A DNA stretch of 64,000 bases. Source: Acidobacteriota bacterium. Its GTDB lineage: Bacteria > Acidobacteriota > Vicinamibacteria > Vicinamibacterales > JAHECP01. A model generated the notes under the pieces. That model saw only the letters and a list, made by a program, of their open reading frames with translations, was not told the origin of the DNA and searched no databases. The translations under genes were made by a program, and so were the position numbers. Below are positions 19,904 through 37,486 of the stretch, one piece after another. The stretch spans positions 3,038 through 67,037 of the forward strand of contig JAHECP010000009.1 of the NCBI GenBank assembly GCA_024641665.1. The letters are read 5' to 3'. How positions within the stretch are numbered: the stretch's first letter is position 1; each line of letters begins with the position of its first letter.

Positions 19904-20067
19904 TTGACGGTCGATTCTAGCAGAACATTGTCGCCTTCCACCTAGGAACGCCGATCTCTTCTGGGACGCGGTTTCTGATGTTCGTACGCAGGGTAGCAAC
20001 CTCGGATCTGGTTCACCCGCGCCGCAGTGTTTAGAAAAGAGGGGGAACTTCAAACGGAAGTTCTCTG

Positions 20068-20273
20068 ACGAGAAGAGCTCTGAAGACGCTCGCGGCGAGT
20101 GACATTGTGAGTGACATCGCACCCGCAAAATCTGAAAACAGCGGCGAACGGAGGAAAGCGGCCGCAAAGAACGGAAGATGGCAAATGGCTGACCCCATTT
20201 CGGTTAAGCGGAAAATGCCCCTGTTTGCTGGGGTTTCTTGATCTGGCGTGACAGATTCCCACTCTCTCCGCCA
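20068..20273. repeat. Copy A of a 206-bp direct repeat (candidate structured RNA or multicopy intergenic element)
   Basis: Aligned by eye to 37281-37486: 6 mismatches, no gaps. It sits in an intergenic position. Confidence 0.9.
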
Positions 20274-20499: not shown

Positions 20500-20877
20500 A
20501 TGCGTATGGTTAAAGCAGTGGAATTCTTTGAAGCGCCGGCGTTCACGCGCCATTTCCGCGCGTATCTCGACGACGCGGGGCTGTTGGCGCTTCAACGCTT
20601 TCTGATCGACCATCCCGAGGCCGGAAAGATCATGCCTGGCACCGGTGGATTCCGGAAGTTGCGCTGGGGTGATGAAGCCCGGGGCAAGGGAAAGCGCGGC
20701 GGCCTGCGCATCGTCTATTTCTTTCTTCCCGAGGCGCACCAAGTCTGGCTGTTCACGCTGTACGGGAAGGGCGAAGCTGACGATCTGACGCCGGCGCAAA
20801 AGGCACACTTGCGCGCAGCGATCGAGGCGGAACGAGTGGCTCGTCGTGCACAACGCGGGGAGCGACGACGGAGATGA
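20500..20877 (+). CDS. Type II toxin, RelE/HigB-like
   Basis: GTGGFRKLRWGDEARGKGKRGGLRIVYFFLPEAHQVWLFTLYGKGEADDL is a typical HigB-2/RelE-family pattern. The toxin gene precedes the antitoxin gene. Confidence 0.8.
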   Translation: MRMVKAVEFFEAPAFTRHFRAYLDDAGLLALQRFLIDHPEAGKIMPGTGGFRKLRWGDEARGKGKRGGLRIVYFFLPEAHQVWLFTLYGKGEADDLTPAQKAHLRAAIEAERVARRAQRGERRRR

Positions 20878-20881
20878 CCAT

Positions 20882-21223
20882 ATGGCCACAAGGAAGCTGA
20901 AGAAGCGCGATCTCTTTGGTGAACTGATGGAGGGCGTCTCTGCCATGCGAGCCCACCGTGAGGGACGTATCACGCTGCGCTCGCATCAGGTGGAACGGTT
21001 GTCGCTGCCCCGTATCAATCAGCAAATCATTCGGAGCACGCGCGAGCGCCTGCGCATGTCGCGTCCGGCGTTTGCCTACCGCATCGGCGTCAACCCGCGC
21101 ACACTCGAGCGATGGGAACAGGGACGAAGCCGGCCGAATGACCAGGCCGCGGCGCTCATCCTGCTCGTGCGCAAGTACCCTGACACGCTCAAGCGCCTGC
21201 AGCACTTGGCGGTGGCGGAGTAA
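20882..21223 (+). CDS. XRE-family HTH antitoxin (HigA-like)
   Basis: ATG 20882 lies 4 nt after the toxin stop. IRSTRERLRMSRPAFAYRIGVNPRTLERWEQGRSRPNDQAAALI is an XRE HTH. Confidence 0.8.
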   Translation: MATRKLKKRDLFGELMEGVSAMRAHREGRITLRSHQVERLSLPRINQQIIRSTRERLRMSRPAFAYRIGVNPRTLERWEQGRSRPNDQAAALILLVRKYPDTLKRLQHLAVAE

Positions 21224-22662: not shown

Positions 22663-24330
22663 ATGTGTTCCATCCTGGGCATGCTCGAATTGAAGTCCGA
22701 TCCGGCGGCCTTGCGCGAGCAGGCACTCGCCCTCTCAAAGCGACAACGCCACCGCGGCCCCGACTGGAGCGGCATCTTCTCGTGCGATCGCGCGATCCTC
22801 GCGCACGAGCGGCTCGCGATCGTCGACATCGAGCACGGCGCCCAGCCCCTCTACGGGCCCGATCGCCGGACGGTCCTCGCGGTCAACGGTGAGATCTACA
22901 ACCACCAGCACCTCGAGCGTGCCCTCGCCCACCGGTACCCGTTCCAGACCCAGTCGGACTGTGAAGTCATCCTCGCCCTCTACGCCGAGAAGGACACGGC
23001 GTTTCTCAACGACCTCAGCGGCATCTTCGCCTTTGTGCTGTACGACGAGGCGCGCGACCGCTATCTCGTCGCACGCGACCCGATCGGCGTCATGCCGCTC
23101 TACACCGGGCGCGACGAGCAGGGCACCTTCTTCGTCGCGTCGGAGATGAAGGCGCTCATCGGGGTCTGCCGGACGATCGAGGATTTCCCGCCAGGCCACT
23201 ATCTCGACAGCGAGGTCGGCGAGGTTCGCCGCTACTACGAGCCCGCGTGGCGGGACTACGAGGCGGTGCGCGGCCGGCCGTGCGACATCGACGCCGTACG
23301 CCACGCGCTCGATCGAGCGGTCGAGCGCCAGTTGATGTGCGACGTGCCCTACGCGGTCCTGCTGTCGGGCGGCCTGGATTCCTCCGTCGTGTCCGCACTG
23401 GCGCAGCGCCACAGCAAGAACCGCGTGGAGGATGGGGGCTTGACGCCAGCCTGGTGGCCGCAGCTCCACTCGTTCGCCATCGGCCTCGATGGCTCGCCTG
23501 ACCTGGCGGCGGCCCGTGACGCGGCCCGCACCATCGGGACGATTCATCACGAGCTGCACTTCACCGTCCAGGAGGGGCTCGATGCGCTGTCGGACGTCAT
23601 CTACCACATCGAGAGCTATGACGTCACGACCGTGCGGGCCTCGACGCCGATGTACCTGCTCGCGCGCCGCATCAAGTCCGTCGGGATCAAGATGGTGTTC
23701 ACCGGCGAAGGATCGGACGAGATCTTCGGCGGGTATCTCTACTTCCACAAGGCGCCCAGCGCCCGGGAATTTCACGCCGAGACGGTGCGCAAGCTCGATC
23801 GGCTCTACAAGTACGACTGCCTGCGTGCCAACAAGTCGATGGCCGCCTGGGGGATCGAAGCGCGGGTGCCCTTTCTCGACCGCGAGTTCCTCGACGTGGC
23901 GATGGGCTTCGATGCCGCCGAGAAGATGGTGACCACGGATCGGTCGATGGAGAAGTGGATCCTCCGCAGGGCGTTCGAGGAACTGCTGCCCGCCAGCATT
24001 GTCTGGCGGCAGAAAGAGCAGTTCTCCGACGGCGTCGGCTACGCCTGGATCGACAGCCTGAAGGCGCTCGCGGAGCGTGACGTGAGCGACGACGAGCTGC
24101 GCCGCGCGCACTATCGGTTTCCGGTGAATACGCCGCAGACCAAGGAAGCGTATGCGTATCGGGCGATCTTTGACCGGCACTTCCCGGGTGACGCCGCCGC
24201 GCAGTGCGTGCCGAGCGGTCCGAGTGTCGCCTGCAGTACACCGGCCGCCGTGGCGTGGGACGCCTCGTTCGCCCAATTGACGGATCCGTCGGGCCGGGCG
24301 GTACGCGGCGTGCACCGCGAGAGCTACTGA
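22663..24330 (+). CDS. asnB: Asparagine synthase (glutamine-hydrolysing)
   Basis: It has the MCSILG N-terminal nucleophile Cys, the SGGLDSS PP-loop, is full length at 555 aa, and shows typical AsnB motifs throughout. Confidence 0.95.
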   Translation: MCSILGMLELKSDPAALREQALALSKRQRHRGPDWSGIFSCDRAILAHERLAIVDIEHGAQPLYGPDRRTVLAVNGEIYNHQHLERALAHRYPFQTQSDCEVILALYAEKDTAFLNDLSGIFAFVLYDEARDRYLVARDPIGVMPLYTGRDEQGTFFVASEMKALIGVCRTIEDFPPGHYLDSEVGEVRRYYEPAWRDYEAVRGRPCDIDAVRHALDRAVERQLMCDVPYAVLLSGGLDSSVVSALAQRHSKNRVEDGGLTPAWWPQLHSFAIGLDGSPDLAAARDAARTIGTIHHELHFTVQEGLDALSDVIYHIESYDVTTVRASTPMYLLARRIKSVGIKMVFTGEGSDEIFGGYLYFHKAPSAREFHAETVRKLDRLYKYDCLRANKSMAAWGIEARVPFLDREFLDVAMGFDAAEKMVTTDRSMEKWILRRAFEELLPASIVWRQKEQFSDGVGYAWIDSLKALAERDVSDDELRRAHYRFPVNTPQTKEAYAYRAIFDRHFPGDAAAQCVPSGPSVACSTPAAVAWDASFAQLTDPSGRAVRGVHRESY

Positions 24331-24932: not shown

Positions 24933-26390
24933 GTGGCAGATGAGCGCGCGCGCCGGCCCGGCGACGACCGCGACGAGCTGATTCAGCGCCAACAAGAAGA
25001 AATCGCACGGTTGCGCGAGGAGGTGGCGCGGGCGGAGCGTCAGCGCCGAGAGATGGAACGCGAACGCGATCGCTTGAAGCGGCGCAACGAGTATCTGAAG
25101 CAGCAACTCGACGCGGCGCGGCGCGCGGGCTTCCGCCAAGCCGCCCCCTTCGCGAAAGATCGTCCACAGGGCCGCGGCCGGCGGCCGGGGCGACGGCCCG
25201 GCGCGGCCTACGGGTGCCACGCGCGACGACCCATTCCGTCGCGGGTCGATGAGACCTACACCGCGGCGCTTCCCGCCGCGTGCCCCGGCTGTGGCGGGGC
25301 GATCCAGCTCACCCGCGTGGCCCCGCAGTATCACGACGATCTGCCCGTGGTGCGGCCGATCGTCCGGCGATTCGACGTGCAGGTGGGGCACTGTGTCGCC
25401 TGTGGCCGGCGCGTCCAAGGGCGGCATCCCCTTCAGACCTCGGACGCGTTGGGGGCCGCGGGCGTGCAACTGGGCCCCAGTGTCGTGACGCTCGTCATGC
25501 TCTTGCACAAGCACGCAGGGATGCCCCTTGAGAAGATCGCGACGCTGCTGCGCGAGCGCTTTGGGTTGACGGTGACGCCCGGGGGACTCGTGCACGCGCT
25601 GCATCGCGCGGCCCGCGTGGCGGCGCCGACCTATGCGGCGTTGTGCGAGCAGATTCGCGGCAGTCCGGTCGTCAGTCCCGATGAAACCGGGTGGCGCGTC
25701 GGGGCCCGGCTGCACCGGCTCTGGGCGTTTGCCACGCCGACCACCACGGTGTACGCCATTCGGCCCGGGCGCGCCTTCGACGATGCGGCGGCCATGCTGG
25801 GCGCCGACTTCGACGGCGTGCTGGTGCGCGACGGCTGGGCGCCGTATCGGCAGTTCACGAACGCGCTGCACCAGAGCTGCCTCCAGCACCTGGCTCGCCG
25901 GTGTCGCACACTGCGGGTCGACCATCCGCGCAGCCCGTGGGCGGCGCACGTGCAGGACGTCTTCACCGACGCGCTCGCGATCCGCGATCGGCGGAACGCC
26001 CGTCAGATCTCGGCCCATGGGGTCGCCGTCGCTCGCGGGCGCTTGCTCGCACGCTTGGGCCGCCTCATCGACACCGTCCCGGCCCTGCCCGCCGCGACGC
26101 GCTTCGCGGCCCATCTCGCCATCGAGTTCCCAGCCGTCCTGGGGTTCTTGTGGGACGCGCGCGTCGACGCGACCAATTGGCGGGCTGAGCACGCGATCCG
26201 TCCCGCGGTCGTCAACCGTAAGATCTGTGGCGGCAATCGCACCCCACGCGGGGCGCACACCCAAGAGGTGCTCGCCAGCGTCGTCCGGACCGCTCGTCAG
26301 CGCCACGTCGATCTCACCAGCTTCTTGACCACGGTCCTACGCGCGCCTCGTCCGACGGTGCCGACCGCCTTCAGAGTCCCGACGCAGTAG
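24933..26390 (+). mobile_element. IS66-family transposase gene (single-ORF type); the IS termini are not resolved
   Basis: The N-terminal coiled coil is ELIQRQQEEIARLREEVARAERQRREMERERDRLKRRNEYLKQQL. The zinc-finger-like motif is CPGCGG...CVACG. The DDE context is VSPDETGWRV...LVRDGWAPY...NWRAEHAIRPAVVNRKICGGNRTPRGA. GTG start. Confidence 0.9.
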
Positions 26391-26921: not shown

Positions 26922-27455
26922 ATGATTCTGACTGGGGCTGCCATTCGCGAGGGTGTCACGAATGGCGAAATCATCATCGAGCCGTTCGACGAACGAGCTG
27001 TCAACCCAAACAGCTACAACTACCGCCTCGGCGACACGCTGATCCAATTGGGACACGGCCCCGCGTTCACAATTGATCGTCACGGCTACGTATTGCTGCC
27101 AGGCAACCTCTACCTGGGCCACACCGAAGAGATTCTCGGTAGCCGAAAGTACGCCATGACGCTGCTCGGTCGATCATCGACTGGCCGCTTGGGACTCTTC
27201 GTGAACATCAATGCCGACCTCGGCCACGTAGGGTCAATGGGCCAGTGGACACTCGAACTGAGCGTCGTTCAACCGCTGCGTGTTTATCCTGGGTGTCGCA
27301 TCGGACAGATCGCGTTTTGGGAAATCACTGGGCGTTCGGTCGCCTACACCGGGCGATATTCGCTCGACCTCGGGCCTGTGGCCAACCGGGATAGGAGCCT
27401 TGAGGGCGAATTACGAGATTCCCTGCAGGTCAGCATTGCGCGGGAGGAACGATGA
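26922..27455 (+). CDS. dCTP deaminase / dUTPase-fold (Dcd-Dut family) protein, paralog 1, catalytic Glu present
   Basis: MILTGAAIREGVTNGEIIIEPF...NPNSYNYRLG, GRSSTGRLGLFV and QWTLELS align with E. coli Dcd (GRSSLARLGL ... IVLEF). The Glu sits 23 residues after the conserved Arg, as for Glu138. GGAGAG SD. Confidence 0.85.
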   Translation: MILTGAAIREGVTNGEIIIEPFDERAVNPNSYNYRLGDTLIQLGHGPAFTIDRHGYVLLPGNLYLGHTEEILGSRKYAMTLLGRSSTGRLGLFVNINADLGHVGSMGQWTLELSVVQPLRVYPGCRIGQIAFWEITGRSVAYTGRYSLDLGPVANRDRSLEGELRDSLQVSIAREER

Positions 27456-27991
27456 TTCTCACCGGCTCCGCGATTTCTGATGCTGTTTCGTGCGGCGACA
27501 TCGTTATCAGGCCATTCAATCCACAACAACTGGGAGCCAACTCGTACGACTTTAAACTAGGAAATAGGTGCGTGACGTACAAGGAGTCTCTTCTTGATTG
27601 CGCGAAAAGCAATCCTACGGAACGTCACGTGGTCGACTCGTACGGCTTGCTCCTCGAACCCAGCAAGATCTACCTCTTCAATACCGATGAGGTAATGGGT
27701 AGCACGAAATATGTGCCGATCATCCGAGGTCGTTCATCGCTCGCGCGTCTCGGTGTGTTCATCAATGTGACAGCGGATCTCATTGACATCGGCTCCGTGA
27801 ATCAATGGACGTTGCAGCTTCACGCTGTCACACCTACCAGAGTGTACCCAGGCATGCTGGTCGGCCAGGTGACGTTCTGGCGTGCCCACGGATCGATTGA
27901 TCTCTACTCCGGCAAGTACGGGAGGCTGACAAGCCCCGTTCCGTCCCTCCTTTTTATGGACTTTGACGCTGAGCGGAGGGCCGATGGCTAA
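27452..27991 (+). CDS. Dcd-Dut family protein, paralog 2, with Gln at the catalytic-Glu position
   Basis: ATGA start/stop overlap with paralog 1. MILTGSAISDAVSCGDIVIRPF...GANSYDFKLG and GRSSLARLGVFI are present, but the sequence reads QWTLQLH where paralog 1 and Dcd have Glu. Confidence 0.8.
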   Translation: MILTGSAISDAVSCGDIVIRPFNPQQLGANSYDFKLGNRCVTYKESLLDCAKSNPTERHVVDSYGLLLEPSKIYLFNTDEVMGSTKYVPIIRGRSSLARLGVFINVTADLIDIGSVNQWTLQLHAVTPTRVYPGMLVGQVTFWRAHGSIDLYSGKYGRLTSPVPSLLFMDFDAERRADG

Positions 27992-29993
27992 GGTTGATCA
28001 CGTTGATCACTTCGGATCCCTCTACGATCCCATACATGGGACTCTTGACCTAGCAGACGCCGTCCCGGCCGACACGTTTGTCGGCAGCCTCGCGACGGCA
28101 GTGCGTTCACCCCTAGTCGATCGGCTTCGGCGCATCAAGCAGCTAGGGTTCGCGTCGTACCAGTTCGTGGGCGCCGATCACAGTCGGTACGCGCACGCCC
28201 TCGGCACGATGCACATGATGCGTGCCCTCCTTCGCCGCCTTGCACCAAGTCTTCGAGTGGACGCTGTCTCTCGACTGCGGAACAGGCTGCCGGCCGCAGA
28301 GCGAGTGTTTTCACAGGCGGAGGCGGCCGGCGTCAACGGCGCGGATGTGCTAACGCAGTACACCCTAGCAGCCGCGTTGTTTCAAGACGTTGGCGAACTG
28401 CCATACGAAACGGCGACGGGACTCATTTTCAAGCCAGACGAGGAGACACAGAGGAGGGTTGCTCAGCACGTGGGTCACGATGTTTACGCTTGGGAGCCGA
28501 AGAAAGTCTTCGGTATTGCAAGTCTGATTGATTCAGGGTCAGAACGGTCTCTGAAGGGCTTCGACCTCCAGTTGTTGGCCTTCCTTATCGTAGGGCGGCA
28601 GTATCCATGGATAAGCGAAGAGCCACAACTGCGCGCGTGGCTAAACCTGCTCGAAGGGGAGGTCGATGCTGACAGGCTCGACTACGTCTATCGAGACGCG
28701 CATCACACTGTCGGCGTCCGCGGCGATCCGCAGTCCGTCGTGGAGTCCCTCGTCGAGTACGACGAGATCGGCCCGGTCGTCTCCGATGTCGGACCGGTCA
28801 TCGACTTCCTCGCTACGCGAGCGAATCTCTGGCGTAGCGTTTATCTGTCTCCCCAGAACCGCTTCCGACGACTGCTTCTCGTCGTCTTACTTCGCGATAT
28901 CTTCTTCAATGAGAACTGCGCTCCCTGCGCGCAGGACTTTGTTCACTCTCATCAAGTTGCGCCATTACTCGGAATGGTTGGATTCAAGACGCTCGACGAT
29001 GTGTGGCTATGGGAGCGGCTCAGGCAGATATCTGAGAGTCGATTGAAACGTAATCTATCTGTGCGTGCCAGCGTCGCGCTCGAGTTGTTGCTCAGCGAAA
29101 GAGCTGACTACGAACACGCCTGGGTTCGTCCGTGGGATGGCGCAGCCTCTAGTGGCAATGACACTGTGCTCCCAGACGAACTGTTTTTTGACACGTATCA
29201 GGAACTGTATCGGCACCACTTCTATGAGCCGGGTTCGGTTCGCATCCATTCGCACAGTTTGAGGTTCCTGCGCACACCACTTGCGCTCGAAGACGCGTCT
29301 TTCGGCGGTTTTATGGCACCGGACTGGACACCGCTGCCGGTCCTTAAGGCCGCTCAAGTGTTCATGCCGATCGACCGTCAAGGTGCGCAATGGGACCAAG
29401 TGCAAAGCCTGCTAGATTCTGGTGGGCTGTACGAGGTCCTCTTCAGGAATGACCTGATCTCCCAGCTTGAGGTACCGACTGACACCCGCACACACAGGGA
29501 CTGTAAGGGGCCAGACATCTTCATATCCTTTCGCTGGGATAATGTGGATATCGTCGACGAGGTCCTGAGAGAGCTGTACTCGCGTCGTCGGCGCTACCAC
29601 GCATTGCGCGGCTCATATGAAGGCCTCGGTGGTACCACTGCTGACAACAGCCGTGCCGCCGCAAGAGAGGGCGAGGCCGCTTTGGTGATTGCATCCGTCG
29701 AGTACGGCGCCGCGTATAAGAACGATCCGAATGGCAACATTCATATTGAGATCGATGAGCTCGTTAGGCGTCGTGACAAGTCTTCAGGGAGCCCGATCGT
29801 CCCACTGGTGTTTCTGTCCATCGATCCTTGGCGAGACATTGAACGGACGCTGCCATGGCAGGGTCTCGGATTCGCGACCGTCCCTACCGTCGGTGAAGGG
29901 CTTCGAGGGCAACCACGGTCCAGAATCGTCAAGGCAGTGGATGTCGCGCTGCAGAAAATTGATTCTGAATATGACGGACCAAACCGTTTCTGA
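27984..29993 (+). CDS. HD-domain dNTP triphosphohydrolase-like (SAMHD1/Dgt type) fused to a C-terminal TIR-like domain (669 aa)
   Basis: ATG 27984 (GGAGGG SD) overlaps the previous stop by 8 nt. The HD signature is PLVDRLRRIKQLGFASYQFVGADHSRYAHALGTMHM plus DADRLDYVYRDAHHTVG. The C-terminus PDIFISFRWDNVDIVDEVLRELY...ALVIASVEYGAAY...IEIDEL is TIR-like. Confidence 0.8.
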   Translation: MAKVDHVDHFGSLYDPIHGTLDLADAVPADTFVGSLATAVRSPLVDRLRRIKQLGFASYQFVGADHSRYAHALGTMHMMRALLRRLAPSLRVDAVSRLRNRLPAAERVFSQAEAAGVNGADVLTQYTLAAALFQDVGELPYETATGLIFKPDEETQRRVAQHVGHDVYAWEPKKVFGIASLIDSGSERSLKGFDLQLLAFLIVGRQYPWISEEPQLRAWLNLLEGEVDADRLDYVYRDAHHTVGVRGDPQSVVESLVEYDEIGPVVSDVGPVIDFLATRANLWRSVYLSPQNRFRRLLLVVLLRDIFFNENCAPCAQDFVHSHQVAPLLGMVGFKTLDDVWLWERLRQISESRLKRNLSVRASVALELLLSERADYEHAWVRPWDGAASSGNDTVLPDELFFDTYQELYRHHFYEPGSVRIHSHSLRFLRTPLALEDASFGGFMAPDWTPLPVLKAAQVFMPIDRQGAQWDQVQSLLDSGGLYEVLFRNDLISQLEVPTDTRTHRDCKGPDIFISFRWDNVDIVDEVLRELYSRRRRYHALRGSYEGLGGTTADNSRAAAREGEAALVIASVEYGAAYKNDPNGNIHIEIDELVRRRDKSSGSPIVPLVFLSIDPWRDIERTLPWQGLGFATVPTVGEGLRGQPRSRIVKAVDVALQKIDSEYDGPNRF

Positions 29994-30993
29994 AGTCGGC
30001 GAGAAGGCTCTTATTGCGAAGTTGATAAGGCCACTGTTTGACGGGGGTGAGCCGTCGCCGACTATTGGCAATGACTGCGCGATCCTAGCCAGCCATGCAG
30101 AGCATGACTTGCTTTTGTCGACGGACCGCGTGCCGGCAGATCTGATTGCGTTTCGGCTAGGGATACTTGACCACTTTGGCTTGGGTCGTTATTTGGCGTT
30201 TCTGAACATTAGCGATATCGCGGCATGTGGGGGTGAACCGGCGGCCTTGCTCCTCAATATGGGGATTCCCGCTCAGCTGCCCGTAAGCGATTTCGATGCC
30301 ATTTGCCGCGGTGTCCACGAAGTGGTACTGCATTTCGGTTGTCGCGTGGTTGGCGGTGACATCAGTTCGAGCACGGAGCTGAGTTTGTCGGCTACCTCGG
30401 TAGGATTTGTGCCAAAGGGACGGGCGCTCACACGGAGCGGTGCGCGGCCCGGCGACAAGGTATTCATCACCAGAGAACTTGGCCTCACGCCAGCCGCCTT
30501 CGGCTATTTCCTTTCACAGGAGTGCAGGCTTGAACTGAGCGAAGCCGACGTCGAGCGGCTCAAGCGTCAATTCACAGACATTGTTCCGCTGGTCGATGTC
30601 GGCCGTTGGTTGCGGAATTCCGGCCGCTGCACGGCGTGTATGGATAATACGGACGGTGTCGCTCAGTCCTTTTCGGAGATTGGAGCGGAAAGCGGTGTAG
30701 CGATCGTTCTAGAACGAGAGCTCTTCAGCGTACCAGAACTCGTGACTTCGATCGCTGTCGCATCGGGCGTCGATCCCCTCAATCTGGCCCTCGGTCCAGG
30801 TGCGGATCTTTCTCTTGTGGGCACCCTTGCCAGTGATTGTGAACCTCCGGCCAATGTGGAGCCGTCCGCCAGAATTCGGGTAGTCGGCCGCGTCGAGGAG
30901 GGTCGTGGCGTACACCTCGCCGACGGCTCGGGTCGCCACCCGTTCGCGATCAAAGGGTGGGATTATTTTGTCGGGGAGATCAGCCGTCGATGA
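29971..30993 (+). CDS. ThiL/PurM-superfamily (AIR-synthase-related) ATP-utilising enzyme
   Basis: ORF-track 29689..30993 trimmed to ATG 29971, which overlaps the previous gene by 23 nt. GEKALIAKLIRPLF...IGNDCAIL...STDRV...NISDIAACGGEPAALLLNMGIP...VVGGDISSS...RSGARPGDKVFITRELG parallels thiamine-monophosphate kinase motifs. Confidence 0.8.
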   Translation: MTDQTVSEVGEKALIAKLIRPLFDGGEPSPTIGNDCAILASHAEHDLLLSTDRVPADLIAFRLGILDHFGLGRYLAFLNISDIAACGGEPAALLLNMGIPAQLPVSDFDAICRGVHEVVLHFGCRVVGGDISSSTELSLSATSVGFVPKGRALTRSGARPGDKVFITRELGLTPAAFGYFLSQECRLELSEADVERLKRQFTDIVPLVDVGRWLRNSGRCTACMDNTDGVAQSFSEIGAESGVAIVLERELFSVPELVTSIAVASGVDPLNLALGPGADLSLVGTLASDCEPPANVEPSARIRVVGRVEEGRGVHLADGSGRHPFAIKGWDYFVGEISRR

Positions 30994-31247: not shown

Positions 31248-32138
31248 CTAGTTCAGCTTGCTCCGCTCCTCCTCGAGCCATCCGCGCATCCTGTCGATCG
31301 ATTCCTCAATGTCGCGGATGCGGCTCTCCTCCTCGTCCATCCACTCCTGGCATCGCTCCTTGAACTTGTCGCTCCAAGCTGACTCATAGTCACTTTCGAG
31401 CTTCGACAGATGTGCCTTCGCCTTTTCGAGAGCGTTTTCTGCCTTGTCCAGCTTGCCTTCCAGCTTTTCGATATTGGCCTCGATCCGGGCGCGCCTGTTC
31501 TCCTGGCGCTCCTGCCACTGACGCCGGCGTTCCTCGTGAAAGCGGTTCTTGGCTTCCTTCCACCTGGCCCAGGCATCGTTCAGGCGATCCTGCGCCTTGT
31601 TCAGGGCTTCGTAGGCCGCGTGCCTGTCCGCAGGAAGCATCACGTCCTTGGATTCGCCGAAGAACGCCCATGCCTCTTTCATCGCGGCGCTGCAGTTCTT
31701 CAAGTCTTCGTGGACTTCATCGAGTTGCTCCAGACCCATCACGGAGCGCAGAGCATTTTCGAGCAGCGTCAACGGCCCGAGCACCACAGAGGCGATCATG
31801 CGTTCCAGGTCCGTGACGGGCCGCGTGCCGCCCAGCTTCGATTCGAGGCTGCCACGGGCACGTTCGCTGCGTTCGACCTTTTCCTGCCACGCGCGCTGGC
31901 GCTTCTCGCGCTCCTCCTTCTCGCGCGCGCTGCGCTCACGGGCCTGGTCGATCAGCTCGTTCAGGCGCTGCCAAGCGGCCTGCCTGTCTTCAAGCCTGGG
32001 ATAGCGCACGCCTTTGAAGCCTGCCTTGACGTCCCCGACCAGGGACCACAGCCCCTTCCAGTAGCCCTTTTGCGGCGCGTCGTCCTCCACGCACGCCTGA
32101 AGCGCGTCGATCATCCTGTCGAGTTCGCTGTAGTCCAT
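31248..32138 (-). CDS. Hypothetical coiled-coil protein (296 aa)
   Basis: Long heptad-like, charged helical stretches (RERSAREKEEREKRQRAWQEKVERSERA; IEANIEKLEGKLDKAENALEKAKAHLSKLESDYE). Clean coding composition. Confidence 0.6.
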   Translation of the reverse strand: MDYSELDRMIDALQACVEDDAPQKGYWKGLWSLVGDVKAGFKGVRYPRLEDRQAAWQRLNELIDQARERSAREKEEREKRQRAWQEKVERSERARGSLESKLGGTRPVTDLERMIASVVLGPLTLLENALRSVMGLEQLDEVHEDLKNCSAAMKEAWAFFGESKDVMLPADRHAAYEALNKAQDRLNDAWARWKEAKNRFHEERRRQWQERQENRRARIEANIEKLEGKLDKAENALEKAKAHLSKLESDYESAWSDKFKERCQEWMDEEESRIRDIEESIDRMRGWLEEERSKLN

Positions 32139-34549: not shown

Positions 34550-35476
34550 ATGCGTTACCCGCCAAACCAGATTACCGAGCCGACGCGGCGGAACATCGCG
34601 GATGAGTTGCTGTTGCGCGGCATGCCGCCGAACGGCCGGCTGAACGAAGTCGAGTTCTTCTCCCGCCTGTTTGATCTGAAGGCGCTGCCGACGCGCGACT
34701 ACCGCACACACGAGTTTCCCGACATGGCGGCCGACCTGTGGCAGCACCGCGTGAACAATGCCGACTGGGATGATGGGTGGTGGTGGACGGACGATCGGCT
34801 GGCCCTGCTGCATGCGCCCGACGAGGCGTTCCTGCGCTTCCTTGCGGAGATGGTTCATCCAATCGTGCGCCCTGACCCTGCGGAGCGGGAAGCGTATCTG
34901 GAGGTTTTCAACCGGCATCTGGCGGCTGAAGGGTGGGAGATCGGACCGGTGAGCCGGATTGGCGCGCATCCCGTCTATGGCGGCAGGCGGCTGGAGCAGA
35001 TGCCTCCGGCCGTGGTCGCCGAGGCGAAGGCACTGGCCCAAACGCTCGGGGATTATGTCGCGCGGCAGGTTACGCGGATGGAGGCGGCCCTGCCCGGAGA
35101 TCTCGAGCTGGCGATCGGCACCGCCAAGGAGTTTATGGAGACCGTCTGCCGGACGATTCTTGAAGAGCGCGGGATTGGACTTCCTGGGGACGATGATCTG
35201 CCGGCTCTGGTCAAGCTGACGGTCAGGAGCCTGCCGGTGGTGCCCGACGGGATCGAGGATAAGGCAAAGTGGGAGGGAACGGTCGTTCGGCTGGTGAACA
35301 ATCTCTCGTCGGCGGGACAGAGTCTTGCGGAGCTGCGCAACGCCTTCGGAACCGGGCATGGCAAGGAAGCGGGCCACAAGGGACTGGACACCCATCACGC
35401 GAAGCTCATCGTCCACCTCGCAACCACTGTCGGCGTCTTCTTGTACGAGGCGCATGAGAGGAATCCGGTTGCGTAG
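34550..35476 (+). CDS. Abortive-infection protein, AbiJ-like N-terminal region plus an Abi_C (HEPN-type) C-terminal domain
   Basis: The C-terminal LAIGTAKEFMETVCRTILE...LSSAGQSLAELRNAFGTGHGK contains the R-x4-6-H HEPN/Abi_C motif (RNAFGTGH). Confidence 0.8.
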   Translation: MRYPPNQITEPTRRNIADELLLRGMPPNGRLNEVEFFSRLFDLKALPTRDYRTHEFPDMAADLWQHRVNNADWDDGWWWTDDRLALLHAPDEAFLRFLAEMVHPIVRPDPAEREAYLEVFNRHLAAEGWEIGPVSRIGAHPVYGGRRLEQMPPAVVAEAKALAQTLGDYVARQVTRMEAALPGDLELAIGTAKEFMETVCRTILEERGIGLPGDDDLPALVKLTVRSLPVVPDGIEDKAKWEGTVVRLVNNLSSAGQSLAELRNAFGTGHGKEAGHKGLDTHHAKLIVHLATTVGVFLYEAHERNPVA

Positions 35477-35714: not shown

Positions 35715-36536
35715 CTACCGTGGCCTCGTCTTGAGGGCTGTCAACAGGAGCTCACATACCAATCCTGCGGACTGAGTGCTGAGCCTACCCTCCAGAAGCG
35801 TCGCAACGCTTGGCTCCGGCCGACCATGCCCGTCACCCCGATCGTTCCTGAGGCGGTTTACGGCGCACGCTAACAGAAACAGCGCCTGTTGCAGCGCCCG
35901 GTACGGGTCCTTGTCCAGCTTTGCGTCTGAACCCGAGAGACCCAGGGAATAAAACGCGCTGAAGAGCGCCGTGGGAAAGTTGGAGGCCGGACCCACGGTC
36001 GCGTAGTGGCCGGTGGTTTCCTTGAGAACGTGCCTGACCGTCGCCTCTTCGAGGTTCTTGGCAGTGCCGATCAAGAGCTCCGCGTCACCCGACCCCGTTT
36101 GCGCGCGGCGCACATAGGCCCACAGCGCCTCCGTCAGGTCAGTCCCCTCAAGGTTCTCAAGAACGGTCGGCCGGAGATTGCCTTCCGGATCAAGGTCAAA
36201 CCCGACCCGCCGAAAGGCGGCGCGGAGCTGCGCGACAGTCTCGGCCCCTGGGCAATCCGGGGTGCCGAGCCGGAAGCCGCCGGAGGCCCGCACCTGGTTG
36301 ACGAAGAGCTCGACAAACCGCGCTCCCTCGTCAGGCTGGTGGTCTATCGCATGGGCGAGAATCATGCGGAGGCGTTTGACCTTGCCCCGCTGCACGCCTT
36401 CCTGGACATCAGGCTCGGCGTCCGACAGGCGCGCCCGTGCCACCATGCGCGAGATCTCGTCGTGCGAGGGACCGCGCTGATCGACGAAACGCGGAAGAAG
36501 GGTGATCAGTTCTTCCGTGAGCATGTATTCCCGCAT
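35715..36536 (-). CDS. Abi_C (HEPN-type) domain protein
   Basis: ORF-track 35715..36578 trimmed to ATG 36536. LLIGTAKNLEEATVRHVLKE...LLACAVNRLRNDRGDGHGR carries the same Abi_C pattern as the convergent neighbour. Confidence 0.75.
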   Translation of the reverse strand: MREYMLTEELITLLPRFVDQRGPSHDEISRMVARARLSDAEPDVQEGVQRGKVKRLRMILAHAIDHQPDEGARFVELFVNQVRASGGFRLGTPDCPGAETVAQLRAAFRRVGFDLDPEGNLRPTVLENLEGTDLTEALWAYVRRAQTGSGDAELLIGTAKNLEEATVRHVLKETTGHYATVGPASNFPTALFSAFYSLGLSGSDAKLDKDPYRALQQALFLLACAVNRLRNDRGDGHGRPEPSVATLLEGRLSTQSAGLVCELLLTALKTRPR

Positions 36537-36764
36537 ATTTGTGCCGCGTCGGGCGCGTGATGACAAACCATCATGCATGGCCGACGCAGCGTTGGCTGCG
36601 ACGTCGCAGAGAAACCAGAAACCGCTGCGCTAGCCGAGGACCAACGCGACCACCGTGTGCCTGTTCCGCGGCCAACGGCATGACTGAGGTCGTATCGAGC
36701 ACAGACACCGAGGCGTTCAGCCTGGACGGGAAGCTGACAGCTCGATTCTCTCTAACGCCGGATC

Positions 36765-37073: not shown

Positions 37074-37280
37074 TTATCTTACCCGGGTGCGCGGTGCGGC
37101 CGGTGCGGGATTTTGGCATTGGCACCAGCGAGAGCGGCGGCGACGTCGCGTCCGCGAGGCAAGGCGCCCTGACGCCTGGTCGGCAGCACGGCGCAGAATC
37201 AGCCAGCGGGTCGGTCTTTGCGCGCTGGCCGTCTCATCGCTCCTCCCCGCTGAGCGAGAGATCCGCGACTGCCTCTTCTA

Positions 37281-37486
37281 ACGAGAAGAACTCTGAAGAC
37301 GCTCGCGGCGAGTGACATTGTGAGTGACATCCCGCCCGCAAAATCTGAAAACAGCGGCGAACGGAGGAAAACGGCCGCAAAGAATGGAAGATGGCAAATG
37401 GCTGACCCCATTTCGGTTAAGCGGAAAATGCCCCTGTGTGCTGGGGTTTCTTGATCTGGCGTGACAGATTCCCACTCTCTCCGCCA
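37281..37486. repeat. Copy B of the 206-bp direct repeat
   Basis: 200/206 identical to 20068-20273, same orientation, intergenic. Confidence 0.9.

What the first reader, a model, noticed from the sequence alone, without database searches (positions are those of the whole stretch)
27984..29993. SAMHD1-type HD domain and TIR-like domain in one 669-aa polypeptide
Seen: the N-terminal HD signature (ADHSRYAHALGTMHM; DADRLDYVYRDAHH) and a C-terminal ~150-aa segment starting DIFISFRWDN with later acidic motifs (SVEYGAAY, IEIDEL) are separated by ~280 aa with no motif I recognise. Established: HD dNTPases hydrolyse dNTPs, and TIR domains cleave or rearrange NAD. Inference: a fusion could link NAD-derived signalling or NAD depletion directly to dNTP hydrolysis. 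I do not know this architecture from described systems.
Basis: partly seen in the sequence, partly recalled or inferred. Interest (0 to 1): 0.6.

Follow-up and report, generated by a model that had tools for sequence, protein, structure and literature searches.

The report
Degenerate SAMHD1-like–TIR protein in four-gene cassette
The 669-aa protein is real and does join a SAMHD1-shaped domain to a TIR domain, but the "HD" site has lost its catalytic histidines, and the gene belongs to a conserved, mobile four-gene cassette (two complementary dCTP-deaminase-like proteins plus a kinase) that looks like an undescribed anti-phage system acting on deoxynucleotides and NAD.

Summary
In detail: ORF 27984-29993 (+) encodes 669 aa with every quoted motif.

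- **TIR domain.** The C-terminal 175 aa fold as a TIR domain (pLDDT 94.9; top PDB hits are almost all TIR domains). An invariant Glu589 aligns with the catalytic Glu of SARM1.
- **SAMHD1-like core.** Residues 1 to about 500, including the "unrecognised" middle region, form one SAMHD1/EF1143-type core.
- **Lost catalytic histidines.** The eponymous HD is QD in 94 of 99 family members. The GH His is Glu, and the HE-dyad His is an invariant Lys. All 12 stand-alone relatives keep HD..GH. The dNTP-pocket residues are kept. Canonical dNTP hydrolysis is therefore doubtful; a nucleotide-binding, oligomerising regulatory role is more likely.

In 35 of 37 loci across many phyla the gene sits with DcdA (keeps the deaminase Glu, lacks the motif-3 Asp) and DcdB (the reverse). 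A kinase is always present: ThiL-like in some loci, a dNMP-kinase-like P-loop protein in actinomycetes.

The TIR is swapped in variants, once for EAD8 next to an EAD8-NACHT-WD40 protein. The cassette lies in a repeat-flanked island here and among conjugation genes elsewhere.

No defence database or paper describes the cassette. One 2026 survey mentions dGTPase-TIR fusions in passing.

The parts
26922..27455 (+). DcdA: dCTP-deaminase-fold protein, 177 aa. It keeps the deaminase Glu ('WTLELS') but has His where E. coli Dcd has Asp128 ('ADLGH').
   Evidence: Pfam DCD 1.6e-30. Best PDB hit is M. tuberculosis Dcd 2qxx. The H/N+E signature is found in 36 loci and this paralogue is always the upstream one.
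27452..27991 (+). DcdB: second dCTP-deaminase-fold protein, 179 aa. It keeps the motif-3 Asp ('ADLID') but has Gln at the deaminase Glu position ('WTLQLH'). It overlaps DcdA by 4 nt and the HD*-TIR start by 8 nt.
   Evidence: Pfam DCD 3.5e-34. Best PDB hit is 3gf0, a dUMP-forming dCTP deaminase chain that reads 'tlqi' at this spot. The D+Q signature occurs in 37 of 37 copies. It is the most conserved cassette protein, 46-69% identity across phyla.
27984..29993 (+). HD*-TIR protein, 669 aa (the finding).
   Evidence: Full-length AF2 model: pLDDT 87.7, pTM 0.78.
27984..29480 (+). SAMHD1/EF1143-type core, residues 1 to about 499, including the 'unrecognised' middle region.
   Evidence: phmmer against EF1143 4.7e-13. 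Profile against EF1143 4.8e-34. Foldseek against 4lrl/3irh/2q14/SAMHD1, E about 1e-11 to 1e-13 over 500-550 columns.
28383..28397 (+). Degenerate HD motif 'QDVGE' (Gln134-Asp135...Glu138), where canonical relatives have 'HD.GH'.
   Evidence: Translation. QD..E in 94 of 99 family members against HD.GH in 12 of 12 stand-alone relatives. Alignments.
28500..28502 (+). Invariant Lys173, at the position of the His of the 'HE(D)' catalytic dyad of canonical relatives.
   Evidence: Translation. Alignment A4. Invariant in 36 of 36.
29505..29969 (+). TIR domain, residues about 508-662.
   Evidence: AF2 pLDDT 94.9. Foldseek PDB top hits are TIR domains. TIR_2 in 32 of 36 members. The window protein alone reaches only 14.6 bits, below the cut-off of 28.
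29748..29750 (+). Invariant Glu589 ('GNIHIE'), candidate catalytic Glu of the TIR domain.
   Evidence: Translation. Invariant in A1 and A3.
29941..30993 (+). ThiL-like (PurM-superfamily) kinase. The start is ATG 29941 (gene call) or ATG 29971. Either overlaps the 3' end of HD*-TIR.
   Evidence: TIGR01379 thiL 197.6 bits against cut-off 184. Pfam AIRS. PDB ThiL 8yks 6.6e-30. Start options. Present in 21 of 37 loci. It is replaced by a dNMP-kinase-like P-loop protein in 15 actinomycete loci.
20064..20273 (.). Left copy of a 210-nt direct repeat bounding the 17.2-kb island that carries the cassette.
   Evidence: the repeat finder: 2 copies, 97% identical, spacing 17,213 nt.
37277..37486 (.). Right copy of the 210-nt direct repeat.

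Best explanation
The gene is the hub of a mobile four-gene conflict cassette, probably anti-phage: DcdA, DcdB, HD*-TIR and a nucleotide-monophosphate-type kinase.

**Shown**
- HD*-TIR has a SAMHD1/EF1143-fold core that keeps the nucleotide-pocket residues shared with working dNTPases.
- The histidine cluster needed for canonical hydrolysis is replaced by Gln134, Glu138 and Lys173.
- It is fused to a TIR domain with an invariant catalytic-type Glu.
- The four genes are co-conserved and overlap.
- The two Dcd paralogues have reciprocal active-site losses.
- The kinase is supplied by two unrelated folds.
- The C-terminal domain is swappable.

**Inferred**
1. HD* no longer turns over dNTPs by the canonical route. 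It binds a deoxynucleotide and oligomerises, as SAMHD1-type cores do.
2. Oligomerisation brings TIR domains together and switches on NAD+ cleavage. This is the logic of TIR-STING and TIR-SAVED.
3. The kinase lifts deoxypyrimidine monophosphates towards the triphosphate level. DcdA deaminates dCTP to dUTP. DcdB either hydrolyses dUTP/dCTP to the monophosphate or acts as a non-deaminating regulatory subunit of a DcdA/DcdB heteromer.
4. This module drains deoxycytidine nucleotides and at the same time sets the nucleotide that HD* reads.
5. The net output on infection is loss of dCTP and NAD+, which blocks phage DNA replication.
For: **Fold and motifs**
- establish the SAMHD1/EF1143 core.
- Searches show QD..E..K replacing HD..H..H(E). 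Meanwhile R47, R49, Q53, L54, H66, R68, H71, D135, D228, D230, R231, Y234, R237 and D238 stay invariant even against canonical relatives.
- The Clover preprint states that the HD motif and HE dyad are required for dNTP hydrolysis.

**TIR domain**
-.

**Cassette**
- 35 of 37 loci have both Dcd paralogues. 21 have the ThiL-like kinase and 15 have the dNMP-kinase-like protein (PHROG 139, 7e-13). Gene orders are fixed.
- The reciprocal signatures are (H/N,E) 36 times and (D,Q) 37 times.
- DcdB-led searches return the same cassette.

**Modularity**
- HD*-EAD8 sits next to an EAD8-NACHT-WD40 protein.
- Other variants carry a different TIR_2 or a non-TIR tail.
- EADs and TIR displace each other in conflict systems.

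**Mobility and context**
- The cassette has 56-59% GC against 65-73% in its flanks.
- 210-nt direct repeats bound the island. An IS66 transposase, AbiJ and Abi_C genes lie nearby.
- Elsewhere it sits among T4SS genes, or next to SIR2_2, deoxyribosyltransferase and QueC genes.

**Precedents**
- A kinase plus a dCTP deaminase are both required in a known dCTP-depleting defence.
- A 2026 survey suggests the dGTPase domain may take the place of STING/SAVED in TIR fusions.
Against: - No experiment exists. No PADLOC hit was found for any of the four proteins.
- Several loci have only housekeeping neighbours.
- The strict invariance of Gln134, Glu138 and Lys173 could equally mark a re-wired active site.
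- In the EAD8 variant the STAND partner has no effector domain of its own. By the published logic that makes HD*-EAD8 look like the recruited effector rather than a sensor.
- The window protein alone is below the Pfam TIR_2 cut-off.
- Nothing shows that DcdA and DcdB form a heteromer. Nothing shows what the kinase phosphorylates; it passes the NCBIfam ThiL threshold.
Confidence: 0.42

Rival explanations
1. This is a multi-enzyme nucleotide-depletion cassette in which HD* is still an enzyme. A re-wired, carboxylate/Lys-based metal site (His71, Asp135, Glu138, Asp230, Lys173) hydrolyses dNTPs or another deoxynucleotide. The kinase and DcdA/DcdB funnel all deoxypyrimidine phosphates into forms the hydrolases can destroy. 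TIR adds NAD+ depletion or merely mediates assembly. This is the closest reading to the first reader's idea.
For: - Three of the four canonical metal ligands remain, and the substituted positions are nearly invariant.
- In L076 the only EAD8 partner of an effector-less EAD8-NACHT-WD40 protein is HD*-EAD8. EAD8 is said to recruit effectors.
- Stand-alone dGTPases and a kinase-deaminase are proven depletion defences.
Against: - The His of HD and the HE dyad, stated to be required for dNTP hydrolysis, are both gone in essentially every member.
- No Pfam HD hit in 36 of 36 members.
- No known SAMHD1-type enzyme works with a QD..E..K site (my knowledge).
Confidence: 0.25
2. The cassette is not immune. 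It is an accessory deoxypyrimidine salvage or homeostasis module, or a pathway to a modified nucleoside or nucleotide. The TIR-fold domain then acts as a nucleotide N-glycosidase or base-exchange enzyme, like its fold relatives the nucleoside 2-deoxyribosyltransferases. HD* acts as a phosphatase or regulator.
For: - All four proteins are nucleotide-metabolism folds.
- Some loci sit among housekeeping genes.
- No hit in PADLOC.
- The cassette occurs mostly in soil actinomycetes, acidobacteria and verrucomicrobia, which are rich in secondary metabolism.
Against: - Distribution is patchy and rare: about 34 full-length loci among 185,579 species genomes.
- Low GC, a repeat-flanked island, an IS element, T4SS and Abi neighbours.
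- TIR is swapped for EAD8 with a STAND NTPase.
- The best structural matches are bona fide TIR domains. No deoxyribosyltransferase appears in the top 50.
- No biosynthetic tailoring genes are conserved next to it.
Confidence: 0.12
3. This is a Thoeris-like signalling system. The TIR domain makes an NAD-derived signal (a cADPR isomer or a base-exchange product) for an effector encoded elsewhere, and the HD* domain only senses infection.
For: Bacterial TIR domains with the catalytic Glu are known signal producers. The structural hits include ThsB1 and AbTir.
Against: - No ThsA, SLOG, Macro or other receptor-effector gene is conserved next to the cassette in 37 loci.
- The three conserved partners are nucleotide-converting enzymes, not signal receptors.
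Confidence: 0.07

Closest known systems
SAMHD1 / EF1143 / bacterial dGTPase-type HD dNTP triphosphohydrolases, including the defensive dGTPases and CloA of the Clover system
   Same: The fold matches over about 500 residues. The DPIHG, RLRxIKQLG, HSRxxH and DADRxDYxxRD motifs are conserved. These enzymes oligomerise and are regulated by nucleotides. They have a documented antiviral role.
   Different: The HD doublet is QD. The GH and HE histidines are Glu and Lys. There is no Pfam HD hit. The core is fused to TIR and always accompanied by DcdA, DcdB and a kinase.
TIR-STING and TIR-SAVED effectors (ligand-binding sensor domain fused to a TIR NADase that is activated by oligomerisation)
   Same: A ligand-binding domain is fused to a TIR with a catalytic Glu. 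The operon encodes nucleotide-converting enzymes. The analogy was proposed for dGTPase-TIR fusions in PMC13519002.
   Different: The sensor is a degenerate dNTPase, not STING or SAVED. There is no CD-NTase or cyclase. The partner enzymes are deaminase-fold proteins and a kinase. Activation by oligomerisation is untested.
Defensive dCTP deaminase of Tal et al. (kinase domain fused to a zinc cytidine-deaminase domain)
   Same: A nucleotide kinase combines with a dCTP-deaminating activity. In that system both are required, dCTP, dCDP and dCMP fall, and dUMP rises.
   Different: The deaminase here has the unrelated Dcd/dUTPase trimer fold, is split into two complementary paralogues, and is a separate gene. 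There is no PADLOC match. An extra HD*-TIR component is present.
Bifunctional dCTP deaminase-dUTPase (M. jannaschii DCD-DUT, M. tuberculosis Dcd)
   Same: These are the best sequence matches for DcdA and DcdB. The GRSSxxRLG phosphate motif and the C-terminal YxGKY lid are kept.
   Different: The two catalytic features are separated onto two proteins: Glu only in DcdA, motif-3 Asp only in DcdB. DcdB naturally carries the Glu-to-Gln state seen in PDB chain 3gf0.
EAD-coupled STAND NTPase conflict systems (Kaur et al. 2020, 2021)
   Same: One variant (L076) is HD*-EAD8 next to an EAD8-NACHT/NB-ARC-WD40 protein. Displacement between EADs and TIR is typical of these systems.
   Different: The window's version has no STAND NTPase and no EAD. 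Those papers' main texts do not mention dCTP deaminase, dUTPase, SAMHD1 or ThiL.

Membership tests
SAMHD1/EF1143-type HD dNTP triphosphohydrolase | Overall two-lobe helical fold of the catalytic core | tested here: met
   Foldseek E 2e-13 to 1e-10, probability 1.00, 500-550 aligned columns, TM (target) 0.56-0.70. Profile against EF1143 4.8e-34.
SAMHD1/EF1143-type HD dNTP triphosphohydrolase | H...HD...D metal-binding tetrad | tested here: not met
   His71, Asp135 and Asp230 are kept. The His of HD is Gln134 in 94 of 99 members (others E or L, never H), against HD in 12 of 12 stand-alone relatives.
SAMHD1/EF1143-type HD dNTP triphosphohydrolase | Catalytic histidines after the HD motif (GH, SH) and the HE dyad | tested here: not met
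   GH becomes GE (Glu138, invariant). The SH position is variable. The His of HE(D) becomes Lys173, invariant. The requirement for these residues is stated.
SAMHD1/EF1143-type HD dNTP triphosphohydrolase | Match to the Pfam HD model (PF01966) | tested here: not met
   0 of 36 members at E<=0.01. The stand-alone relative P0100 does match HD and HD_assoc_2.
SAMHD1/EF1143-type HD dNTP triphosphohydrolase | dNTP triphosphohydrolase activity | not testable with these tools
   Needs an enzyme assay.
TIR-domain NAD+-cleaving enzymes | TIR (flavodoxin-like) fold | tested here: met
   AF2 pLDDT 94.9. Of the top 50 Foldseek PDB hits, nearly all are TIR domains. Best is RUN1 7rts at 1.1e-5, TM about 0.5-0.6.
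TIR-domain NAD+-cleaving enzymes | Match to the Pfam TIR_2 model above its cut-off | tested here: inconclusive
   The window protein scores 14.6 bits against a cut-off of 28. 32 of 36 relatives match at E<=0.01, best 1.1e-9. PDB profile hits to MyD88 TIR and bacterial SEFIR are only 1e-3 to 3e-2.
TIR-domain NAD+-cleaving enzymes | Conserved catalytic glutamate at the start of helix C | tested here: met
   Glu589 is invariant. hhalign puts it on the Glu of SARM1 'WVHKE'.
TIR-domain NAD+-cleaving enzymes | NADase or cyclase activity | not testable with these tools
   Needs an assay.
Thoeris | A ThsB TIR protein paired with a ThsA-type (SIR2/Macro/SLOG) effector gene | tested here: not met
   No such gene is conserved beside the cassette. 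No PADLOC hit.
Known nucleotide-depletion defences in PADLOC (dCTP deaminase, dGTPase, AvcD) | Sequence match to the curated models | tested here: not met
   0 PADLOC families at E<=0.1 for DcdA, DcdB, HD*-TIR and the ThiL-like protein.
dCTP deaminase (Dcd/dUTPase-fold) | Catalytic Glu (E. coli Glu138) together with the motif-3 Asp (Asp128) in one chain | tested here: not met
   DcdA has Glu with His/Asn at position 128. DcdB has Asp with Gln at position 138. This holds in every locus. Both are below the TIGR02274 cut-off: 64.5 and 80.1 against 92.8 bits.
Thiamine-monophosphate kinase ThiL | Score above the NCBIfam equivalog cut-off | tested here: met
   TIGR01379 197.6 bits against 184.15. 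PDB ThiL 6.6e-30.
Thiamine-monophosphate kinase ThiL | Thiamine-pathway genomic context or function | tested here: not met
   The gene is always inside the cassette. It is replaced by a dNMP-kinase-like P-loop protein in 15 loci. The substrate is not testable here.

The most novel reading that the evidence does not exclude
A deoxyuridine nucleotide (dUTP or dUDP), normally kept scarce in cells, serves as an immune second messenger.
- DcdA is the signal synthase, making it from dCTP.
- DcdB, the natural Glu-to-Gln form that keeps the dUTPase-type Asp, is the signal-clearing enzyme that sets the threshold.
- The kinase re-charges dUMP against the host's dUTPase.
- The receptor is a dNTPase turned pseudoenzyme (HD*) that binds but cannot hydrolyse the signal. 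It then assembles the TIR domains to burn NAD+, or nucleates a STAND NTPase through EAD8.
Probability: 0.12. Interest if true: 0.9.

Novelty: new variant of a known kind. Interest (0 to 1): 0.68.

Why it matters
- **A new candidate defence system.** If the cassette is an immune system, it adds a new architecture to nucleotide-pool-directed defence. It would combine deoxycytidine depletion, a dNTPase-derived nucleotide receptor and NAD+ depletion in one operon.
- **An enzyme-to-receptor conversion.** It offers a natural case of a SAMHD1-type enzyme converted into a probable ligand sensor. The catalytic histidines are replaced precisely while the substrate pocket is kept.
- **A split bifunctional enzyme.** A dCTP deaminase-dUTPase is divided into two obligately paired paralogues.
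- **Isofunctional kinase displacement.** A ThiL-fold and a P-loop dNMP kinase replace each other, which points to a so far unknown substrate range for ThiL-like enzymes.
- **Testable prediction.** The hypothesis that SAMHD1-like cores can play the role of STING or SAVED in front of TIR becomes directly testable.

Tried and rejected
**Database searches that found nothing**
- PADLOC on nine proteins: nothing for the cassette, only AbiJ for a neighbour.
- NCBIfam: nothing for HD*-TIR.
- Pfam on the window protein alone: only a sub-threshold TIR_2 hit and no HD hit.
- tblastn against plasmids and phages: only stand-alone HD proteins covering at most 42% of the query.
- IMG/VR viral contigs: no relative. 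The cassette is therefore not evidently phage- or plasmid-borne.

**Local sequence scans**
- Promoter and terminator scan of 26.3-31.4 kb: counts were within the shuffled expectation.
- tRNA and Rfam scans of the window: none. The 210-nt island repeats are therefore not an obvious tRNA or ncRNA attachment site.

**Literature**
- Seven full-text searches found no description of the cassette.

**Other checks**
- The large 1,400-1,650-aa proteins in the representative search carry canonical HDVGHGP motifs. I set them aside as a different family.
- The cyanobacterial variant's neighbour is a PAS-GGDEF-EAL protein and was not informative.
- I considered that the C-terminal domain might be a nucleoside deoxyribosyltransferase-like hydrolase. 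The structural matches are TIR domains, so I rejected it as the first choice.

**Not possible or not run**
- Model coordinates could not be inspected, so the geometry of Gln134, Glu138 and Lys173 is untested.
- I prepared a bulk PADLOC scan of flanking ORFs but did not run it. It exceeded the size cap, and without a baseline it would have been weak evidence.


Full report
**1. The observation**

The six-frame ORF list shows one long ORF at 27963..29993 (+). The ATG at 27984 gives 669 aa. That product is identical to a database protein (P0001), and homologues begin at the same Met.

All quoted strings are present. ADHSRYAHALGTMHM is at residues 64-78 and DADRLDYVYRDAHH at 228-241. DIFISFRWDN is at 511-520, and SVEYGAAY and IEIDEL lie at 571-593.

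The protein belongs to a real family. One search found about 99 full-length homologues at 30-73% identity. An exhaustive profile search found 166 clusters (50% identity level) with E<=1e-30, of which roughly 70 are full length.

**2. The N-terminal 500 residues**

Single-sequence Pfam finds no HD domain. phmmer against the PDB finds the EF1143 dNTPase (4.7e-13) and SAMHD1 (about 1e-7). The family profile reaches 4.8e-34.

An AlphaFold2 model built on 36 homologues has pLDDT 87.7 and pTM 0.78. Foldseek aligns 500-550 columns of it to EF1143 (4lrl, 3irh, 2o6i), BT4208 (2q14) and SAMHD1, with E of 2e-13 to 1e-10. The "about 280 aa with no motif" is therefore the second lobe of the same core, not a separate domain.

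**3. The HD site is not an HD site**

In the family alignment the doublet is Gln134-Asp135, in the string 'LFQDVGELPY'.

- Across all 99 family members the motif is QD..E in 94. The rest are QD..D (1), LD (1), ED (1) and two that the regular expression missed.
- All 12 stand-alone relatives recovered in the same search read HD.GH.
- Aligning family and stand-alone relatives together shows four changes. The HD His becomes Gln. The GH His becomes Glu138, which is invariant. The SH His becomes variable. The His of the 'HED' dyad becomes Lys173, invariant.
- Almost everything else is invariant across both groups: DPIHG, R47/R49/Q53/L54 in RLRxIKQLG, H66/R68/H71, D135, D228/D230/R231/D233/Y234/R237/D238, R279 and Y287.
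- By my recollection of SAMHD1 numbering, these include the substrate-pocket residues Q149, L150, R164, K312, Y315 and D319, and the allosteric R145.
- The Clover preprint states that the HD motif and the HE dyad are required for dNTP hydrolysis.
- No family member matches Pfam HD.

The pattern is a precise replacement of the histidine cluster with the rest of the nucleotide pocket retained. This fits an enzyme turned into a ligand-binding module. A re-wired active site is the alternative, and sequence alone cannot decide between them.

**4. The C-terminal domain is a TIR**

The window protein alone gives only 14.6 bits to TIR_2 against a cut-off of 28. However, 32 of 36 relatives match at E<=0.01, the best at 1.1e-9.

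A model of residues 495-669 has pLDDT 94.9. Its best PDB matches are almost entirely TIR domains: RUN1, RPS4, L6, PdTIR, TcpB, BtTir, AbTir, SARM1, ThsB1 and TIR-STING.

Tyr538, Ser571 and Glu589 are invariant. A profile-sequence alignment puts 'GNIHIE589' on 'DWVHKE' of SARM1, where the Glu is catalytic.

**5. The gene is one of four**

Upstream lie two dCTP-deaminase-fold genes, at 26922-27455 and 27452-27991. Downstream lies a ThiL-like kinase, at 29941 or 29971 to 30993. All are on the same strand and each overlaps its neighbour.

I fetched 37 loci that encode a full-length relative and searched them with the window's proteins.

- 35 loci have both Dcd paralogues.
- 21 loci have the order DcdA-DcdB-HD*TIR-ThiL-like.
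- 15 loci, all actinomycetes, have the order HD*TIR-kinase-DcdA-DcdB. Here the kinase is a 189-aa P-loop protein that matches PHROG 139, 'deoxynucleoside monophosphate kinase', over its full length (7e-13).

ThiL and dNMP kinases both transfer phosphate from ATP onto a phosphomonoester. Two unrelated folds therefore appear to supply one conserved step.

Starting instead from DcdB returns the same cassette.

The carriers span Actinomycetota, Acidobacteriota, Verrucomicrobiota, Planctomycetota, Alphaproteobacteria, Ignavibacteria, Cyanobacteria and others. They are rare: about 34 full-length loci among 185,579 species genomes.

**6. The two Dcd paralogues are complementary**

I aligned them to E. 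coli Dcd.

- The upstream paralogue always keeps the deaminase Glu (E. coli Glu138). It has His or Asn in place of the motif-3 Asp (Asp128). This was seen 36 times.
- The downstream paralogue always keeps the Asp and has Gln in place of the Glu. This was seen 37 times.
- Both keep the GRSSxxRLG phosphate motif.
- DcdB's best PDB match is 3gf0, a dUMP-forming dCTP deaminase chain that reads 'tlqi' at this position. I recall this entry as the M. jannaschii E145Q variant.
- DcdA's best match is the M. tuberculosis enzyme.
- DcdB is the most conserved protein of the cassette.

My inference is that DcdA can deaminate. DcdB cannot, and is either a dUTP/dCTP pyrophosphatase or a regulatory subunit. 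The two likely form a mixed trimer or hexamer.

**7. The C-terminal domain is exchangeable**

- P0087 carries a different, canonical TIR_2 domain (8.8e-23).
- A cyanobacterial group (P0064, L012) has a non-TIR tail.
- P0084 ends in EAD8 (9e-26).
- The P0084 locus reads ThiL-like, DCD, DCD, HD*-EAD8, then an EAD8-NACHT/NB-ARC-WD40 protein and a HIT protein.
- EAD8 is described as an adaptor that recruits effectors. EADs and TIR displace one another in STAND-based conflict systems.

The conserved core is therefore DcdA, DcdB, a kinase and HD*, with a swappable output or coupling domain. This ties the family to biological-conflict systems.

It also cuts both ways for the role of HD*. In that variant, HD*-EAD8 looks like the recruited effector.

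**8. Mobility and context**

- The cassette has 56-59% GC in a window that is otherwise 65-77%.
- It lies in a 17.2-kb segment bounded by 210-nt direct repeats that are 97% identical.
- That segment also holds an HTH/MqsA-like antitoxin gene, an IS66 transposase, an AbiJ-like protein and an Abi_C protein.
- Elsewhere the cassette sits between type IV secretion genes (TrbI, CagX, TraC/TraG).
- Other neighbours are an SMC_N/AAA_23 ATPase; GIY-YIG, SIR2_2, deoxyribosyltransferase and QueC genes; and an HD-CE/iHD-CE protein.
- Other loci have ordinary neighbours.
- There are no relatives in phage, plasmid or viral-contig collections.

**9. How it most likely works**

I favour a sensor-effector reading, with confidence about 0.4.

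- HD* binds a deoxynucleotide without canonical turnover and oligomerises as SAMHD1-type cores do.
- That assembles the TIR domains for NAD+ cleavage. The logic is the one established for TIR-STING and TIR-SAVED. PMC13519002 suggested it for dGTPase-TIR fusions.
- The kinase and DcdA/DcdB convert deoxycytidine nucleotides into deoxyuridine nucleotides.
- This parallels the defensive kinase-deaminase of Tal et al. There both domains are needed, dCTP, dCDP and dCMP vanish, and dUMP accumulates. That deaminase has a different fold.
- The conversion would starve phage replication of dCTP and also define the nucleotide that HD* reads.

Only the anatomy is shown. Every biochemical step is inferred.

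The main rival (about 0.25) keeps HD* as a re-wired hydrolase in a pure depletion cassette. A non-immune metabolic role (about 0.12) and Thoeris-like signalling (about 0.07) are less likely.

**10. Comparison with what is known**

The protein works like, but fails membership of, the catalytic SAMHD1/dGTPase family: the fold is met, but the metal tetrad and catalytic histidines are not. It meets the fold and catalytic-Glu tests for TIR enzymes.

It is not Thoeris, not the known dCTP-deaminase or dGTPase defences, and not in PADLOC.

Seven literature searches found no description of the cassette. The only near mention is the 2026 survey, which notes that dGTPase domains are sometimes fused to TIR. 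It gives no analysis of the motif or the operon.

**11. Verdict**

The more important result is an apparently undescribed, widely scattered, mobile four-gene cassette with several unusual features. It is best classed as a new variant of known kinds of system, namely sensor-TIR effectors and nucleotide-pool defences. Interest: 0.68.

Noticed in passing
window 20064-20273 and 37277-37486: Two copies of a 210-nt direct repeat, 97% identical and 17,213 nt apart. They bracket a segment with mixed GC that holds a toxin-antitoxin-like pair, an asparagine synthase, an IS66 transposase, the cassette and Abi-type genes. This looks like an integrated island, but no integrase, tRNA or Rfam family was found at the ends.
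   Followed up: partly
window 34550-35476 (+) and 35715-36578 (-): An AbiJ-like protein (AbiJ_NTD3 6e-45 plus Abi_C 2.7e-19; PADLOC AbiJ 1.1e-10) and a second Abi_C-domain protein lie convergently 3.5 kb downstream of the cassette. Between them and the cassette are several ORFs with no family match, including a 296-aa coiled-coil protein at 31248-32138 (-).
   Followed up: partly
window 24933-26390 (+): An IS66-family transposase (DDE_Tnp_IS66, 8e-35) ends 530 nt upstream of DcdA. It is in a very GC-rich stretch (72%), unlike the cassette (56-59%).
   Followed up: partly
window 20500-21223 (+): Two overlapping 125-aa ORFs. The second has HTH_31/HTH_3 and a weak MqsA-antitoxin match; the first has no Pfam hit. 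This is a possible toxin-antitoxin pair just inside the left repeat.
   Followed up: partly
window 22663-24330 (+): A complete glutamine-hydrolysing asparagine synthase (Asn_synthase 5.6e-84 plus GATase_7) lies inside the repeat-flanked segment. I did not examine whether it is cargo or a host gene.
   Followed up: no
L076 3204-9373 (MAG Deltaproteobacteria, JAAEOQ010001756.1): A variant of the family in which TIR is replaced by EAD8. It is followed by a 1,257-aa EAD8-NACHT/NB-ARC-WD40 protein and a HIT-family protein. The ThiL-like gene is moved to the front of the operon.
   Followed up: partly
L027 9635-10114 (Nocardia aurantia) and L002 6383-6940 (Bradyrhizobium): Some loci carry a third Dcd-fold gene beside the cassette. 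The Nocardia one has both the Asp and the Glu, the canonical combination.
   Followed up: no
L077/L078 1-14546: The same four-gene cassette is inserted between type IV secretion and conjugation genes (TrbI, CagX, TraC/TraG-like). It occurs in at least ten long contigs from different samples, suggesting carriage on an integrative conjugative element.
   Followed up: partly
P0193-P0232 (representative search): A separate family of 1,400-1,650-aa proteins with two canonical HD dNTPase-like domains (HDIGHPAFSH and HDVGHGPYSH). These were the next-best matches to the profile. They were not examined further.
   Followed up: no
window residue 126 of the HD*-TIR protein (28359-28361): The window protein and its closest relative have Tyr where 33 of 36 family members have a conserved His (LxQHxL), two helical turns before the QD motif.
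   Followed up: no
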